DNA of 64,000 bases from Lysobacterales bacterium (GCA_038233665.1 JBBSVJ010000001.1:13781-77780), one strand, 5' to 3'; shown: positions 41,513 to 46,515, counted from the first letter of the stretch. Notes: generated by a model from the sequence alone, not told the origin. Made by a program: numbers and translations.

Positions 41513-41775
41513 GTCTGCAGATCGGATTTTCTGAAGAAGAACTACCGCGATTAACTGCATTTCTAACGAATAAGCGGGTTGGGCCATTGCGCTTAGTTGC
41601 TGCTTGAAGCAACGATCCCATCGGGTTTGCAGTCGGCTAATCCAGATTTGAGCTGAAGATTCGGCTCGACGAAAGCCTGGATTGTCTGGGTCGCCACAGG
41701 CGAACTGGCCAACAGCGCAAGGGCGATCTGATCGATGTGCTAGTTTGCCCGGATGATTATTCAGGGAATTTGCGC

Positions 41776-44223
41776 ATGACTGCAGGATCAAGAGTTGCCT
41801 TTGCCTTTCTCATCGTGTTGCTTAGCCTGAATGGGCACGCTGCTACCCGCCATGCTGGCGAGTGCATCGATGGTGTTGCCGAGGGTTATGCCTGCAGCCA
41901 TGTTGACCTGCTTGGCCATCTCGACCTGCTCCAACTCGGCACGACGGTCTCGGGCAATGGCAACGATATGTGGGGCTGGACCGATCCCGATTCCGGCAAG
42001 GAATATGCGCTGATCGGCCTCAACAACGGCACGGCTTTCGTTGATATTTCTGATCCGCAAAATCCCCTGCGCCTGGGCAACCTTCCAACCCACAGCGTCA
42101 ACTCACTCTGGCGTGACATCAAGACCTTTGGTCATTACGCGCTGATCGTTTCCGAAGCGCAGAACCACGGCATGCAGATTTTCGACCTGCACCATCTGCG
42201 TGATGTGATCACGCCGCCAATCACCTTTTCCGAGGATGCGTGGTATGGCAACTTCGGGCGTGCGCATGACATTGTCGTCAACGAGTCCTCCGGTTTCGTC
42301 TACGCAGTCGGATCGCGTCAGGGTACGCAACAGTGCAATGCAGGCCTGCACATGATCAACATGCAGAATCCGCTGGTTCCGGCATTTGTCGGATGTTTCA
42401 GCGCGGATGGCTACACCCATGATGCCCAGTGCATCAACTACGACGGCCCCGATGCCGATTATCTCGGCCATGAAGTCTGTTTCGCCGCAAACGAGGACAC
42501 GTTGACGATTGTCGATGTGAGCAACAAGGCAAGTCCGGTACAGATTTCACGCACCGGTTATAGCGGCTCCGGTTACGCGCACCAAGGCTGGCTCAGTGAC
42601 GATCGACGCTACATGCTGTTCGATGACGAGCTCGACGAACAGAACGACGGACACAACACGCGAACTTATGTCTGGGATGTGCAGGATCTCGACGCTCCTC
42701 ACGTCGATTTCACCTATGACGGCCCAACCAAAGCCATTGACCACAACCTCTATATCCATGAAGGCTACGCTTACGAATCGAATTACCAAGCCGGTTTGCG
42801 CATTCTCGATCTGTCCAAGATCGACAGTGACGTTTTGACTGAAGCTGCGTTTTTCGATACCCATCCGGAGAGTGACAGTGCCGATTTCGAAGGCGCATGG
42901 AGCAACTATCCGTTCTATGCGAGTGGTGTGGTCGGCGTCAGTGATATCAACCGCGGATTGTTTTTGTTGCAGCCTGAGTTGTGTCGAGCGCCGCTACCGG
43001 CAAGTGGCCTGAGCGCGGTTGGCAACGGCGACCATCGGATCGATCTCAGCTGGAGCCCGACGACAACGCCAGGCGCCAGCTACTCGATTGATCGGATTGT
43101 TGGCGGATGCAGCGGCAGCGCGGTCGAGACCATCACCAGCGGATTGAGTGGTACGAGTTTCAGCGATACCTCGGCCTCGGGAACGGTGACTTACGGCTAT
43201 CGTGTTCGCAGTGTGGCCGCATCGGGTGAATGCTCGGCGGCAGCCAGTGCTTGCGTCGAAGCAAGCACGACGGGAACCTGTACCGCAGCGCCGGCGTTCG
43301 ATGGGATTTTCAGCCTGCAGTCTGCCGCAACTTCATCGTGTGCTCTCGATCTGAGCTGGCAATCCGCGAGCTCGTATTGCGGTGCCGGTGCGAGCTTCAG
43401 CGTTTACCGATCGCAGGATGCGGGATTTACGCCGGCTCCGGCCGATCAGGTGAGTTCGTCGGTTTCCGGCCTTTCATGGACGGATACAGCGATCGCCGCC
43501 GGTGTCGACTACACCTATGTCGTTCGCGCTACCGATACCGGCAATGGCAGCATGGATGGCAACAGCGTGCGCTTGAGCGCTCGTGCGACGGGTCCGATCA
43601 GTGATGGTGATTATTTCAGCGGCGCGGAAACCGGAACGGCCATGCTTTCTGGCGTCGGAGAAACCCCGCTTGTGAGGCAACCGACGGCACCGGCGCACGT
43701 GGCTTGGGAAATTGTCGACAGCCAGGCGCACAGCGGAGCACGCAGCTATTTCTCCGGCTACAACAACTCTGAATGTCTGTCGATCGGGAGTGGGCCAATC
43801 TCGCTGAGCGCGGGACAAAACTCGATGATGGAATTCTGGACCCGCTACGGCATCGAAGCCGGTTACGACGGCGGCGTCGTGCAGATATCGAGCAATGGTG
43901 GACAGGATTGGTCGACGATTGCGCCGATTGGTGGCTATCCGGCGAGCTTCAACGGCAACAACACGAACGCCTGTGGTCTACCGACCAACAGCGGTAATTA
44001 TTCCGGCACCAACGCTGCGAACCTGGATTGGTCTGCACAGCAATTTGATCTATCCGCCTATGCCGGACAAACGATTCAGTTGCGCTGGCGCTTCAGCACC
44101 GATGGCGGAGTGACCGCAGACGGTTGGTGGATCGACGATATCCGTATCACCCACGCCCAAGTGCCCGGCATGTGCATGTCGAGCAATGATGTGATCTTTG
44201 TTGATGGATTCGAGATGTTGTGA
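41776..44223 (+). CDS. Choice-of-anchor B family secreted protein with FN3-like and C-terminal beta-sandwich domains
   Basis: Signal peptide, GNDMWGWTDPDSGKEYALIG, WRDIK, YTHDAQC, HQGW, HNLY and WSNYPFY. Ends in NDVIFVDGFEML. Confidence 0.85.
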   Translation: MTAGSRVAFAFLIVLLSLNGHAATRHAGECIDGVAEGYACSHVDLLGHLDLLQLGTTVSGNGNDMWGWTDPDSGKEYALIGLNNGTAFVDISDPQNPLRLGNLPTHSVNSLWRDIKTFGHYALIVSEAQNHGMQIFDLHHLRDVITPPITFSEDAWYGNFGRAHDIVVNESSGFVYAVGSRQGTQQCNAGLHMINMQNPLVPAFVGCFSADGYTHDAQCINYDGPDADYLGHEVCFAANEDTLTIVDVSNKASPVQISRTGYSGSGYAHQGWLSDDRRYMLFDDELDEQNDGHNTRTYVWDVQDLDAPHVDFTYDGPTKAIDHNLYIHEGYAYESNYQAGLRILDLSKIDSDVLTEAAFFDTHPESDSADFEGAWSNYPFYASGVVGVSDINRGLFLLQPELCRAPLPASGLSAVGNGDHRIDLSWSPTTTPGASYSIDRIVGGCSGSAVETITSGLSGTSFSDTSASGTVTYGYRVRSVAASGECSAAASACVEASTTGTCTAAPAFDGIFSLQSAATSSCALDLSWQSASSYCGAGASFSVYRSQDAGFTPAPADQVSSSVSGLSWTDTAIAAGVDYTYVVRATDTGNGSMDGNSVRLSARATGPISDGDYFSGAETGTAMLSGVGETPLVRQPTAPAHVAWEIVDSQAHSGARSYFSGYNNSECLSIGSGPISLSAGQNSMMEFWTRYGIEAGYDGGVVQISSNGGQDWSTIAPIGGYPASFNGNNTNACGLPTNSGNYSGTNAANLDWSAQQFDLSAYAGQTIQLRWRFSTDGGVTADGWWIDDIRITHAQVPGMCMSSNDVIFVDGFEML

Positions 44224-44288
44224 GATCGATCGCGGTCGACAAGCTTGGCTGAGGTTTGGTTTGATGCGGAGCAAGTTCATGGCGACGC

Positions 44289-44532
44289 GTGCAATTGCAA
44301 TTGCACTTGCGATTGAGGGGTCGATGCGATCGTTCGCAACGCCTTAATTTGATCCTGCATTTAGGGTCGATGCGATCCTTAGCAACGCCTGCAATTTGCT
44401 TTTGCAATTGAGGGGTCGATGCGATCCTCCGCAACACCTGAATTTGCTCCTGCAATTCAGGTGTACTTGCCATCCATGGCAATCGCCTGAAACTGCTCCT
44501 GCTTTTCAGGCATACATGCCATCCATGGCAAT
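44289..44532 (-). ncRNA. Candidate CsrB/RsmY/RsmZ-like GGA-loop small RNA (tandem hairpin array)
   Basis: Five 46-49 nt units, each with two hairpins. 7 loops carry GGA and the stems show compensatory changes. RNA function is inferred. Confidence 0.6.
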
Positions 44533-44560
44533 AAAAAACCCCGGGTGTTTCCACCCGGGG
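44533..44560 (-). terminator. Rho-independent terminator of cspA
   Basis: Minus strand: CCCCGGGTG-GAAA-CACCCGGGG followed by TTTTTT. Confidence 0.9.
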
Positions 44561-44585
44561 TCTTGGTCAAACAATGGCGCGAGGT

Positions 44586-44795
44586 TCAGGCAACCTGAAC
44601 TTCGTCAGCCTGCATGCCCTTCTGACCCTGCACGGCGACAAACGTCACGCGCTGGCCTTCCTGCAGTGACTTGAAGCCGCTGCCCTGGATCGAGCGAAAA
44701 TGCACGAACAGGTCGGGGCCGCTTTCCGGCGTGATGAAGCCGAAGCCTTTGGCATCGTTGAACCACTTGACGGTACCGTTTTGGCGATTGGACAT
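44586..44795 (-). CDS. cspA: Cold-shock protein
   Basis: [15 protein letters not shown] (RNP1) and LFVHF (RNP2), with an AGGAG SD. Confidence 0.97.
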
Positions 44796-45186
44796 ATCTA
44801 ACTCCTAACAACTCAAATGAAATGGTATTCACGCTCCCGGGAACTCCCTGGGGACGAGACTGAGGTTGCTAAGGAGCGCGCAATCGGAACGATGGAATCG
44901 TGAAATTCGACGACATCGGGCCACGATTCACAGTGACCCTGGCAAACACAGTTCGCGTACTGTACAGAGGATTGTTCTACAAAGCGACTGGGCTCGGTGA
45001 AAATTCCATGATGCCAGCTTGCAATGGCTCAAGCTTTGTGCGCGTCGCGCCACTGGTTGGTGAAAAAACGTTTTCATAACAAAGGCTTGCGTGTTCGAAT
45101 CCTCTAATGATCGTTTTGGAGCTGATCCAGCTGAGTGCGTCTGCTGTTATGAATAGCCAGATGACGCGCCGAGGAAGTCCTGATTT

Positions 45187-46515
45187 TCACGTTTCAAGGC
45201 TGCCTCTCGCGAAGTCTCTGCTTGTCAGCAGCTGCCGCAGGGCGACGTAGCTAGCTGCCATCGGCGCGGCTGATGCCGGACGCGAGAGCAATCTGGCGAG
45301 CGCCTCGGGAGGCTCGATCTGACGACCGATCAGCGGCTCTACGATCTGCTCGAACTTGGCGGGATGCGCGGTCGCGACTATTGCCCAGTGGCCGGCGACA
45401 CCTTGGCGGCGGAGATGTTCGAGAACGCTCGCGGCGCATGCGCTGTGCGGACAAAGCACCTCGCCATAGGCAAATGCCGCTGATCTGATTGTTGCTCGAA
45501 TGGAGTCGTCTTCAACGGCGTCCACCGTGAATGCCGTGCGTAGCAAAGGCGCATCCGGATAGAGCCAGCACAAGCGTTCGAAATTGCTCGGTGCGCCGAC
45601 ATCCATCGCGTTGGCCAGGGTCGCCACGCTCTCTTCTGGCACATAGTCAGCGCCGGCAAAGAATTTGGGTAACGCGCGATTGGCATTGGTAGCGAGGGCG
45701 ATCTCACCGATCGGCAAGCCGCAAGCGCGGGCCAGAATAGCGGCCATCGCATTGCCGAGATTACCCGTTGGAATAACGAAATTCAGACACTCCCCGGTGC
45801 CACGCCAATGTGCCAAAGCGGCGCATGCGTAGTACGACATCTGCGGCATCAAGCGGCCGAGACTGATGCTGTTCGCAGAACTCAAAGGGATCTGCGCTTG
45901 TAACTCGCGATCGGCCAATGCTTTCTTGACCAGACGCTGGCAATCATCGAATGAGCCGGCAACCCGAAGCGTGGTGATGTTGTCGCCGAAGCAGCCAAGT
46001 TGATGAGCCTGACGCGGTGACACGCGTCCATCCGGATACAGCACGACCACGCGCAAGTTGGCCAGTCCATGAAAGGCGGCGGCGACTGCAGCACCGGTAT
46101 CCCCCGAGGTCGCTACAAGTATCGTCAGCGTCGCTTGCTCGGGTGTGCGAAGGCGCTGCATGCACTGGGCCAGAAAACGCGCGCCGAAATCCTTGAATGC
46201 AGCCGTCGGGCCATGGAACAACTCGAGGATGCTGGTTTGATCGAGGCCAAGCGGTTTCAGCGGCGCCGGGAAATCCAACGCCTCGGTACAGATCGCTGGG
46301 AGTTCGCTGGCCAATGGATCGTCGGCAAAGAAAGGCTGCAGCAGTCGTGAGGCAATGCCGGCGATGGATTCCAGCCCATCAAAGTCATCGGTTGAAAACT
46401 GAGGCAACCGTTGCGGAACATACAAGCCGCCATCGGTGGCCAATCCGGCGAGCAGCGCGCTACTCAAGTTGACGCCATCGGCGGCGTTGCGATCGCGCGT
46501 GCTGACGTATTTCAT
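45187..46515 (-). CDS. thrC: Threonine synthase
   Basis: [14 protein letters not shown] (PLP Lys), ATSGDTG, NSISLGR and PTGNLGN. Confidence 0.96.

What the first reader, a model, noticed from the sequence alone, without database searches (positions are those of the whole stretch)
44500..44600. The array has no room for its own promoter: possible CspA-controlled terminator read-through
Seen: the first unit begins immediately after the U-tract of the strong cspA terminator (9-bp GC stem, GAAA loop, U6). The DNA where a -10 box would lie is the GC hairpin itself. Established: CspA-family proteins are RNA chaperones with antitermination activity. Inference: the GGA array would be made only by read-through and possibly processing. 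That would couple cold-shock or CspA level to RsmA titration, a circuit I do not recognise as described.
Basis: inference. Interest (0 to 1): 0.62.

Follow-up and report, generated by a model that had tools for sequence, protein, structure and literature searches.

The report
Dispersed hairpin repeat behind cspA terminator
The GGA-hairpin array that starts right after the cspA terminator is one copy of a dispersed 49-base double-hairpin repeat that sits flush against the terminators of many unrelated genes in this Dokdonella-like genome, so its position reflects how the repeat spreads rather than a cold-shock-to-RsmA circuit.

Summary
On the minus strand, cspA (44586-44795) ends in a 9-bp hairpin (44539-44560, -20.1 kcal/mol) and a T6 tract (44533-44538). 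The first repeat unit starts at 44532, and no promoter-like site or GacA box is present.

The interpretation does not hold as a cspA-specific circuit.
- The array is two intact and three decayed copies of a 49-nt two-hairpin unit.
- The unit forms 9 arrays in this genome and 10-30 units in about a dozen congeners.
- 45 of 47 arrays examined start flush against the hairpin and T-tract of an unrelated gene's terminator (sucD, phasin, TonB receptor, DUF3011).
- Unit number at cspA varies from 1 to 5. Congeners without the family have a bare cspA terminator. The sucD array is unique to this genome.
- Both stems covary (94% paired, 12 of 15 pairs compensatory). The loops, C-ANGGAN-G and GC-AGGA-GC, are 98-100% conserved.
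- There is no G·U bias toward the GGA strand.
- The unit also occurs in distant gammaproteobacterial MAGs, inside IS91-type transposase genes and MITE-like composites.

In four metatranscriptomes, cspA mRNA contigs of a congener stop before the terminator. At the phasin array, two of four runs show read-through. RsmA binding is untested.

The parts
44586..44795 (-). cspA-family cold-shock protein gene (69 aa, stop included)
   Evidence: ORF list; Pfam CSD PF00313, 97 bits; orthologues at 88-99% DNA identity in congeners.
44796..44943 (-). cspA 5' UTR, about 148 nt, cspA-thermoregulator-like; the transcript start is inferred
   Evidence: Rfam RF01766 aligns to 44533-44888 at 54 bits, below the gathering score of 78. 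In the G004 orthologue, RNA contigs from three metatranscriptomes begin at L013:1945-1950, which is homologous to about window 44943.
44533..44560 (-). cspA intrinsic terminator: hairpin 44539-44560 (CCCCGGGTG GAAA CACCCGGGG) plus T6 at 44533-44538
   Evidence: Sequence; hairpin -20.1 kcal/mol, -25.2 with A/U extension; conserved in congeners with and without the array; aligned as the terminal hairpin of the Rfam cspA model.
44484..44532 (-). Repeat unit A1 (49 nt, intact): hp1 GCC-AUGGAU-GGC, linker GTA, hp2 CCTGAAA..GC-AGGA-GC..TTTCAGG
   Evidence: nhmmer hit at C1:58312-58264, 61.7 bits; fold -18.6 kcal/mol; about 10-fold depth in source DNA run X1.
44435..44483 (-). Repeat unit A2 (49 nt, intact)
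   Evidence: nhmmer hit at C1:58263-58215, 55.1 bits; fold -21.8 kcal/mol.
44386..44434 (-). Unit B1 (decayed): hp1 loop GAGGAT is kept, hp2 loop is now GCAAAAGC (GGA lost)
   Evidence: Sequence and fold, -11.6 kcal/mol; internal 53-nt self-similarity at 89% between B units; no full copies elsewhere in the genome.
44340..44385 (-). Unit B2 (decayed, 46 nt): the predicted hairpins are largely lost
   Evidence: Fold -6.7 kcal/mol.
44287..44339 (-). Unit B3 (decayed, 53 nt): no GGA left
   Evidence: GGA count of 0.
44233..44251 (+). Weak terminator-like hairpin of the convergent gene
   Evidence: Consensus scan. The array therefore lies in a convergent intergenic gap.
41737..44223 (+). Convergent neighbour: LVIVD-repeat / InhA-like MAM-domain protein (828 aa)
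   Evidence: ORF list; Pfam PF20773 and PF08309. In the G004 orthologous locus, the low-depth RNA over the distal array is contiguous with this gene's 3' end.

Best explanation
The array behind cspA is a local cluster of a dispersed, non-coding, REP/MITE-like repeat. The unit is 49 nt and has two hairpins. hp1 has a 4-bp stem closing a C-ANGGAN-G loop. A conserved GTA linker follows. hp2 has an 8-9-bp variable stem, a one-base bulge and a GC-AGGA-GC tip.

In one subclade of this Dokdonella-like genus, the units occur as head-to-tail arrays of 1-6 copies. These arrays begin within 0-2 nt of the T-tract of pre-existing intrinsic terminators, always in the sense orientation of the terminated gene.

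Shown here: dispersal, terminator adjacency, presence/absence and copy-number polymorphism, stem covariation with conserved loops, occurrence in other contexts in distant gammaproteobacteria, and decay of three units at the cspA locus.

Inferred: the unit is, or recently was, mobilised in trans and inserts preferentially at the T-tract next to a terminator hairpin. Arrays then grow and shrink by slippage or unequal exchange.

The lack of room for a promoter therefore follows from where the element lands, not from regulatory design. Sense transcription of an array happens only as far as its terminator leaks. That leak is detectable at the phasin array but not at the strong cspA terminator in the available metatranscriptomes. 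Any effect on RsmA would be a by-product spread over many loci, not a CspA-gated switch.
For: - Dispersal: the first ~100 nt of the array match 8 other contigs of the genome and 10-24 places in several congeners. The nhmmer census gives 17 units in 9 arrays. The 15-mer TTGCCATGGATGGCA (up to 1 mismatch) occurs in 26 of 37 genus genomes, with 0-1 hits for the reversed control. DNA run X1 shows about 10-fold depth over the A units, with contigs joining them to the sucD and TonB-receptor terminators at 44537/8.
- Terminator adjacency: 8 of 8 arrays in the own genome and 37 of 39 in six congeners.
- Unrelated upstream genes: CSD, sucD, phasin, TonB receptor, DUF3011.
- Polymorphism: at cspA there are 5 units (2 intact, 3 decayed) here, 4 in G017, 3 in G003, 1 plus a nested element in G018 and G004, and none in G012, G019, G016, G015, G005, G008 and G014. 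The sucD array exists only in this genome among 30 loci compared.
- Structure: 94.1% of cells paired, 12 of 15 pairs with compensatory change, 0 of 500 shuffles as high, slid controls 31-50%. There are 22 hp1 and 87 hp2 stem versions. Loop GGA is 98-100% conserved in 49 HMM-detected units.
- DNA-like symmetry: G·U 30 versus A·C 44, and the MFE difference between strands is -0.3 ± 2.1 kcal/mol.
- Mobility elsewhere: a 49-nt insert at one codon of Y2_Tnp (IS91-type) genes in at least 12 MAGs, and MITE-like composites with terminal inverted repeats and two inverted units.
- Not an Rsm gene: no Rfam hit, no promoter, no GacA box.
- RNA: cspA contigs stop before the terminator in X33, X47, X48 and X49.
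Against: - No mobilising enzyme was identified. Y1 (RAYT-type) genes occur in 31 of 37 genomes regardless of unit content, and none in this genome is flanked by units.
- Many array loci are shared among species, so most copies are old and stable rather than actively moving.
- The insertion mechanism is unknown. Bare terminators in relatives already carry TTATTGCC-like or AATGCC sequence after the T-tract, which is unexplained.
- The loops match the published CsrA/RsmE hairpin consensus CANGGANG (from my own knowledge) and are the best-conserved part of the unit. The orientation is always the one that would put GGA in a read-through transcript. Both features would also fit an RNA function.
- One contig in RNA-type run X24 bridges cspA into unit 1, and phasin arrays are read through in 2 of 4 runs.
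Confidence: 0.8

Rival explanations
1. The array is a dedicated RsmA/CsrA sponge with no promoter of its own. It is made only when CspA-family antitermination lets RNA polymerase pass the cspA terminator, which would couple cold shock to RsmA titration.
For: - The array is flush with the terminator and no promoter is found.
- GGA sits in hairpin loops on the cspA-sense strand.
- csrA is present in the genome.
- CspA, CspC and CspE reduce intrinsic termination in E. coli (Bae et al. 2000, as cited in PMC9765468).
- One contig in RNA-type run X24 spans 44482-44771.
Against: - The same arrays lie behind at least 8 other terminators in this genome and dozens in congeners.
- The array is absent or variable at orthologous cspA loci.
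- Three of the five local units are decayed.
- No bridging contig was found at the cspA locus of G004 in four metatranscriptomes with cspA depth 12-71.
- The hairpin is the strongest of the array-bearing terminators, at -20.1 kcal/mol.
- There is no terminator after the array on the minus strand, no Rfam match and no G·U strand bias.
Confidence: 0.04
2. Family-wide RNA function. The units are portable CsrA/RsmA-binding modules. Placed after terminators of highly expressed genes, they are transcribed by terminator leak. They either titrate RsmA collectively or recruit it to 3' ends, for example to stabilise read-through transcripts.
For: - hp1 is exactly C-ANGGAN-G and hp2 carries AGGA in a closed tip.
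- Loop GGA is 98-100% conserved while the loop N position (82%) and the stems vary.
- 45 of 47 arrays are in the sense orientation relative to the terminated gene.
- Read-through contigs cross the phasin array (X48, 802 nt, depth 32; X33, 390 nt, depth 49.5).
- Xanthomonas has a precedent for an mRNA-derived RsmA sponge, RsmU (PMC7694677).
Against: - There is no excess of G·U on the GGA strand, and folding energy is equal on both strands.
- In other taxa the unit lies antisense inside transposase genes and in both orientations within MITE-like composites. That fits recognition at the DNA level.
- Arrays decay and are gained or lost.
- Orientation bias can come from a strand-specific insertion mechanism.
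- No binding data exist.
Confidence: 0.1
3. DNA- or transcript-level housekeeping role, as in E. coli REP/BIME. The arrays would act as back-up terminators, as barriers to 3'-exonucleases, or as binding sites for nucleoid proteins or gyrase at the ends of strongly transcribed units.
For: - The arrays are placed at gene ends of probably highly expressed genes (cspA, sucD, phasin).
- The hairpins are stable, at -18 to -22 kcal/mol per intact unit.
- The structure is strand-symmetric.
- At the phasin locus, depth steps down across the array: 127, then 49.5, then 9 in X33.
Against: - Congeners do without the arrays at the same terminators.
- Conserved loop sequence is not needed for a purely structural role.
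- Contig depths are a poor measure of RNA level (tool caveat).
Confidence: 0.06

Closest known systems
REP / BIME / REPIN elements of Enterobacteria and Pseudomonas, mobilised by RAYT (Y1) transposases (PMC3337134; own knowledge)
   Same: Both are short imperfect palindromes, extragenic, in tens of copies, and clustered in arrays of variable copy number. Both have a conserved short motif 5' of the main hairpin (here GTA, in REP GTAG). Both are lineage-specific in distribution. In marine MAGs, two inverted units form a REPIN-like doublet.
   Different: The units here have two hairpins with strictly conserved GGA loops. Dokdonella arrays are head-to-tail rather than alternating. They start flush with terminator T-tracts. 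No RAYT association was found.
Csr/Rsm sponge sRNAs (CsrB, RsmY, RsmZ, RsmX) and Xanthomonas RsmU (PMC7694677)
   Same: Both carry repeated GGA motifs in hairpin loops. csrA is present in this genome. RsmU shows that an RsmA-binding RNA in the same order can be mRNA-derived and lack its own promoter.
   Different: Classical sponges are single-copy genes with their own GacA/UvrY-dependent promoter and terminator. RsmU lies between the stop codon and the terminator of comEA. This array lies beyond the terminator, is multi-copy and variable, matches no Rfam model and has no GacA box.
Bacterial class C (IIC) group II introns (PMC4424553; Robart et al. 2007, cited there)
   Same: The target choice is the same: insertion immediately after intrinsic terminator motifs, in the sense orientation.
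   Different: IIC introns are ribozymes of about 0.7-2 kb with a reverse transcriptase. This unit is 49 nt with no ribozyme and no ORF. The resemblance is in where it lands, not in what it is.
CspA-family transcription antitermination (Bae et al. 2000, cited in PMC9765468)
   Same: A cold-shock-domain protein gene followed by an intrinsic terminator. Csp proteins can lower termination at some hairpins.
   Different: Nothing here shows that CspA acts on its own terminator. The hairpin is very stable, and metatranscriptome contigs stop before it.
MIRU-type minisatellites of mycobacteria (own knowledge)
   Same: Both are 40-100-bp units in tandem at many intergenic loci, with locus-specific variation in copy number.
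   Different: MIRUs are not double hairpins with conserved loops and are not tied to terminators.

Membership tests
Csr/Rsm sponge sRNA (CsrB/RsmY/RsmZ type) | Several GGA motifs exposed in hairpin loops | tested here: met
   A1 and A2 each have two GGA loops; B1 and B2 are partly decayed; B3 has none.
Csr/Rsm sponge sRNA (CsrB/RsmY/RsmZ type) | Own promoter, usually with a GacA/UvrY upstream box | tested here: not met
   No sigma-70-like site in 43900-45300. No TGTAAGN6CTTACA within 3 mismatches near the array.
Csr/Rsm sponge sRNA (CsrB/RsmY/RsmZ type) | Own intrinsic terminator at the 3' end | tested here: not met
   No terminator-like site on the minus strand downstream of 44287.
Csr/Rsm sponge sRNA (CsrB/RsmY/RsmZ type) | Match to a curated RNA family model | tested here: not met
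   No Rfam hit at gathering score in the window. No Csr/Rsm family at E up to 10 in 43900-45300.
Csr/Rsm sponge sRNA (CsrB/RsmY/RsmZ type) | Binding and titration of CsrA/RsmA | not testable with these tools
   csrA is present, but no binding data are available.
3'-UTR-derived RsmA sponge (RsmU type) | Lies between the stop codon and the terminator of the parent mRNA and is processed from it | tested here: not met
   The array starts after the terminator T-tract. RsmU geometry is from PMC7694677.
REP/BIME/REPIN | Short imperfect palindromes, dispersed and extragenic, in many copies | tested here: met
   covariation.
REP/BIME/REPIN | Clusters with variable copy number between strains or species | tested here: met
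   1-6 units per array; the cspA locus carries 0-5 units among congeners.
REP/BIME/REPIN | Conserved GTAG-type tetranucleotide 5' of the hairpin | tested here: inconclusive
   G-T-A at unit positions 18-20 is 100/92/96% conserved and the fourth base varies. A related subfamily reads GGTAGAG.
REP/BIME/REPIN | Cognate RAYT (Y1 transposase) gene flanked by the repeats or co-occurring with them | tested here: not met
   PF01797 is in 31 of 37 genomes irrespective of unit count. The own genome's five hits lie on contigs without units.
MITE | Terminal inverted repeats and target-site duplication | tested here: inconclusive
   The ~300-nt composites in marine MAGs have terminal inverted repeats CTCTAAAAAT... 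The Dokdonella units have none. A 2-nt ambiguity (GG or TT) is seen at junctions.
Terminator-targeting mobile elements (IIC group II introns) | Insertion directly after an intrinsic terminator, in sense orientation | tested here: met
   45 of 47 arrays.
Terminator-targeting mobile elements (IIC group II introns) | Group II ribozyme with intron-encoded reverse transcriptase | tested here: not met
   The unit is 49 nt, and no group II intron hit was found by Rfam.
Csp-dependent antitermination target | Read-through of the terminator that rises with Csp level or cold | not testable with these tools
   Only steady-state metatranscriptome contigs are available. No bridge was found at G004 cspA in 4 runs, and one low-depth bridge in X24.

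The most novel reading that the evidence does not exclude
The 49-nt unit is a mobile CsrA/RsmA-binding module. It would be a small non-autonomous element, widespread in Gammaproteobacteria, whose two loops are kept as ideal CsrA hairpins. In Dokdonella it homes to the 3' side of intrinsic terminators in sense orientation. Terminator leak at highly expressed genes, cspA included, would then produce GGA-rich 3' tails. These tails would collectively buffer free RsmA or recruit it to those transcripts. That would amount to a distributed, read-through-fed Rsm sponge in an order where classical RsmY/Z-type genes are not known.
Probability: 0.08. Interest if true: 0.8.

Novelty: new variant of a known kind. 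Interest (0 to 1): 0.35.

Why it matters
As posed, the finding would have been a new regulatory circuit linking cold shock to RsmA. The evidence instead shows a repeat family, so that circuit should not be pursued at cspA alone.

What remains interesting is the family itself.
- It is a tiny double-hairpin element with strictly conserved GGA loops and covarying stems.
- It lands flush against intrinsic terminators in 45 of 47 cases. This target choice is otherwise known mainly from IIC group II introns.
- It also turns up inside IS91-type transposase genes and MITE-like composites in distant gammaproteobacteria.

It offers a tractable case for asking how a 49-nt element recognises terminators. 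It also allows a test of whether repeats behind terminators shape 3' ends or RsmA availability. For annotation, it warns that GGA-hairpin arrays can be repeats rather than sRNA genes.

Tried and rejected
- Rfam at gathering score on the whole window, and at E up to 10 on 43900-45300: only a sub-threshold cspA thermoregulator hit, and no Csr/Rsm family.
- Promoter scan and GacA-box search: nothing near the array.
- RAYT link: PF01797 is nearly ubiquitous in the genus and not adjacent to units, so this was rejected as evidence.
- Strand-of-function test by G·U versus A·C counts and by MFE on both strands: no asymmetry.
- RNA runs holding the array alone: none listed, but this was a weak test with only 5 sampled words.
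- Absence of the array from some congeners' cspA loci looked at first like proof of recent insertion. Those genomes mostly lack the family altogether, so the sucD locus was used as the cleaner case.
- Replichore bias of array strand in G003 was noticed but is confounded with gene direction, and was not pursued.
- Earlier notes of this scan added only the sibling first-reader note.
- Literature searches combining REP, CsrA and GGA, or MITE and intrinsic terminator, returned nothing.

Full report
**1. The observation**

Read on the minus strand, the window carries a 69-aa cold-shock-domain gene at 44586-44795 (Pfam CSD 97 bits). It is followed by the hairpin CCCCGGGTG-GAAA-CACCCGGGG (44560-44539; -20.1 kcal/mol) and TTTTTT (44538-44533). 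From 44532 runs a series of tandem units rich in GGA.

The Rfam cspA thermoregulator model aligns to 44533-44888, hairpin included, at 54 bits. That is below the family's gathering score of 78. No sigma-70-like promoter is found on either strand between 43900 and 45300, and no GacA-type box lies near.

**2. What the array is**

The first ~100 nt of the array are not unique. They match eight other contigs of the same genome and 10-24 places in several congeners. A profile search finds 17 units in 9 arrays in this genome. The core 15-mer occurs in 26 of 37 genomes of the genus, with ten or more copies in about ten of them, against 0-1 for the reversed control.

In the DNA run that best holds the window, depth rises about ten-fold over units A1 and A2. 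Contigs there join the unit to the sucD and TonB-receptor terminators exactly at 44537/8. Record titles from the genome-collection scan identify the genus as Dokdonella, order Lysobacterales.

The unit is 49 nt: ATTGCC-ATGGAT-GGCA, a GTA-containing linker, then a longer hairpin tipped by GC-AGGA-GC. On 36 diverse units:
- 94.1% of cells pair.
- 12 of 15 pairs show compensatory changes.
- No shuffle out of 500 reaches the observed values.
- Sliding the partners drops pairing to 31-50%.

Across 140 distinct units there are 22 hp1 and 87 hp2 stem versions. In 49 units detected by profile alone, with no GGA requirement, the loop GGA positions are 98-100% conserved. The variable loop position is 82%, and stem positions fall as low as 45%.

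At the cspA locus, only A1 (44484-44532) and A2 (44435-44483) are intact. B1 to B3 (44287-44434) are decayed copies: predicted stability falls, and B3 has no GGA left.

**3. The flush position belongs to the family, not to cspA**

In this genome, all eight arrays whose upstream side lies on a contig begin TTTT(T)ATTGCCATGGATGGCA directly after a different GC-rich hairpin. In six congeners, 37 of 39 arrays do the same. The two exceptions follow another kind of hairpin.

The terminated genes are unrelated: cspA, sucD, a phasin, a TonB-dependent receptor and a DUF3011 protein. The hairpins are the genes' own terminators. Congeners without any array keep the same cspA hairpin and T-tract, followed by unrelated DNA (L015-L019).

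Unit number at cspA is 5 here (2 intact), 4 in G017, 3 in G003, and 1 plus a nested element in G018 and G004. At sucD, only this genome has an array among 30 orthologous loci, which include unit-rich relatives. So insertions behind terminators have happened recently. Many other array loci are shared across species, so most copies are old.

**4. Evidence that it behaves as mobile or repeated DNA**

The same unit occurs far outside the genus.
- In at least twelve unrelated gammaproteobacterial MAGs, a 49-nt copy interrupts a Y2_Tnp (IS91-type) transposase gene at one codon (…ERHASMT|unit|WAQRLKRVF…). It is antisense and breaks the reading frame.
- In marine MAGs it is part of a ~300-nt composite with terminal inverted repeats. 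That composite carries two inverted units whose hp1 stems differ but whose loops are the same.
- In Dokdonella, a second, related element sits inside the GCAGGA|GC loop of some units, with a 9-nt direct repeat.

Mismatches in the stems show no bias toward G·U on the GGA strand (30, against 44 that would be G·U on the complement). Both strands fold equally well. A dedicated structured RNA would normally show such a bias, whereas a DNA palindrome would not.

I found no mobilising enzyme. RAYT-type Y1 transposase genes are in 31 of 37 genomes whatever their unit content, and none here is flanked by units.

**5. Transcription**

No run holds the array by itself, but that was a weak test. For the activated-sludge congener G004, four true metatranscriptomes hold its cspA locus. 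In all four:
- 100%-identical cspA contigs (depth 12-71) run from about L013:1945-1950 and stop at 1582-1621, before the hairpin.
- There is a coverage gap over the terminator and first unit.
- The low-depth RNA further on (2-4) is contiguous with the convergent gene.

At the phasin array of the same genome, two of four runs give a single contig from the CDS through the terminator and the whole array (802 nt at depth 32; 390 nt at depth 49.5). In the other two runs the contigs stop at the gene end.

For a strain close to the window's, one contig of depth 7.4 in an RNA-type library spans 44482-44771. In the same run the neighbouring gene is not covered.

Contigs have no strand and are a poor measure of level. 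The fair reading is that arrays of this family can be transcribed by terminator leak. At cspA the leak is small or undetectable, and nothing ties it to CspA.

**6. How it most likely works**

Shown: a dispersed, variable, two-hairpin repeat with conserved loops that abuts terminators.

Inferred: the unit is moved in trans and inserts at the T-tract beside a terminator hairpin in one orientation, and arrays then expand and contract locally. The promoterless position follows from this.

The main rival is that the units are portable CsrA-binding modules fed by read-through. Three things keep it alive:
- hp1 matches the CANGGANG hairpin consensus (own knowledge).
- The loops are strongly conserved.
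- The orientation is always sense.

The genome has csrA. Xanthomonas RsmU shows that an mRNA-derived RsmA sponge exists in the order, although RsmU lies upstream of its terminator (PMC7694677).

**7. Comparison with known systems and verdict**

The element works like REP/BIME-type repeats in form and distribution, and like IIC group II introns in target choice (PMC4424553). It fails the tested membership features of both: there is no RAYT link, and no ribozyme. It also fails those of Csr/Rsm sRNA genes: no promoter, no terminator of its own, no Rfam match, and it is not single-copy.

CspA-family antitermination is real in E. coli (Bae et al. 2000, via PMC9765468) but is not evidenced here.

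- Observation: confirmed.
- Interpretation: partly supported. Read-through is the only route to sense RNA, but the CspA-to-RsmA circuit is not supported.
- Novelty: a new variant of a known kind of repeat.
- Interest: moderate to low for the finding as posed, with a small chance of something more interesting at the family level.

Noticed in passing
L085:7389-7920 (-), L068:4729-5121 (+); also L040, L042, L057, L059, L066, L073, L084, L087, L088, L105: The same 49-nt unit interrupts a Y2_Tnp (IS91-type) transposase gene at one codon (…ERHASMT|unit|WAQRLKRVFNIDIETC…) in at least 12 unrelated gammaproteobacterial MAGs. It is antisense to the gene and breaks the reading frame. This could be one old insertion spread with the IS, a hot target site, or a recoding signal.
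   Followed up: partly
L039, L058, L069, L094, L111, L115, L116 (about 260 nt upstream to 90 nt downstream of the match): These loci carry ~300-nt MITE-like composites bounded by inverted repeats CTCTAAAAATGCAC… / …ACTATTTTTAGAG. Each contains two inverted units whose hp1 stems differ (GTAC/GTAC versus TGCC/GGCA) while the ATGGAT loop is the same, a REPIN-like doublet.
   Followed up: partly
G000 contigs C24:13640-13830, C154:4300-4600, C65, C17, C340; L012, L013, L076: A second repeat of about 100-190 nt is nested in the GCAGGA|GC loop of some units, flanked by a 9-nt direct repeat AACGCAGGA. It is built from related modules (CTGCAYGGATGCAG-GAGGTAGAG-CAACGCAGGAGCAGTTGCCGAG).
   Followed up: partly
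L016, L017 (cspA), L204 (sucD, G048): Terminators without arrays already read TTTTTTATTGCC|TGCG and TTTTTAATGCC after the hairpin, which resembles the unit's first 8 nt (TTATTGCC). This could be microhomology used for insertion, a footprint of a lost array, or coincidence.
   Followed up: partly
L166, L184, L108: The few arrays not preceded by a terminator follow a different hairpin, …GGCTTCAGCC(G)CGATG…, which looks like a separate REP-type repeat of this lineage.
   Followed up: no
G003 chromosome (loci L156-L166 and L011): The array strand is minus for 6 of 7 loci below 2.05 Mb and plus for 5 of 5 above 2.59 Mb. Orientation therefore tracks gene or replichore direction.
   Followed up: no
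window 44796-44943 (-): cspA has a long 5' UTR of about 148 nt, by homology to RNA contig starts in G004. Its match to the Rfam cspA thermoregulator is sub-threshold (54 versus 78 bits), suggesting a diverged Xanthomonadales version of that leader.
   Followed up: partly
L169:221-1022: In one metatranscriptome (X48), a single 802-nt contig links the phasin gene, its terminator, the array and the start of the next gene. The phasin terminator may therefore act as an attenuator within a longer transcription unit.
   Followed up: no
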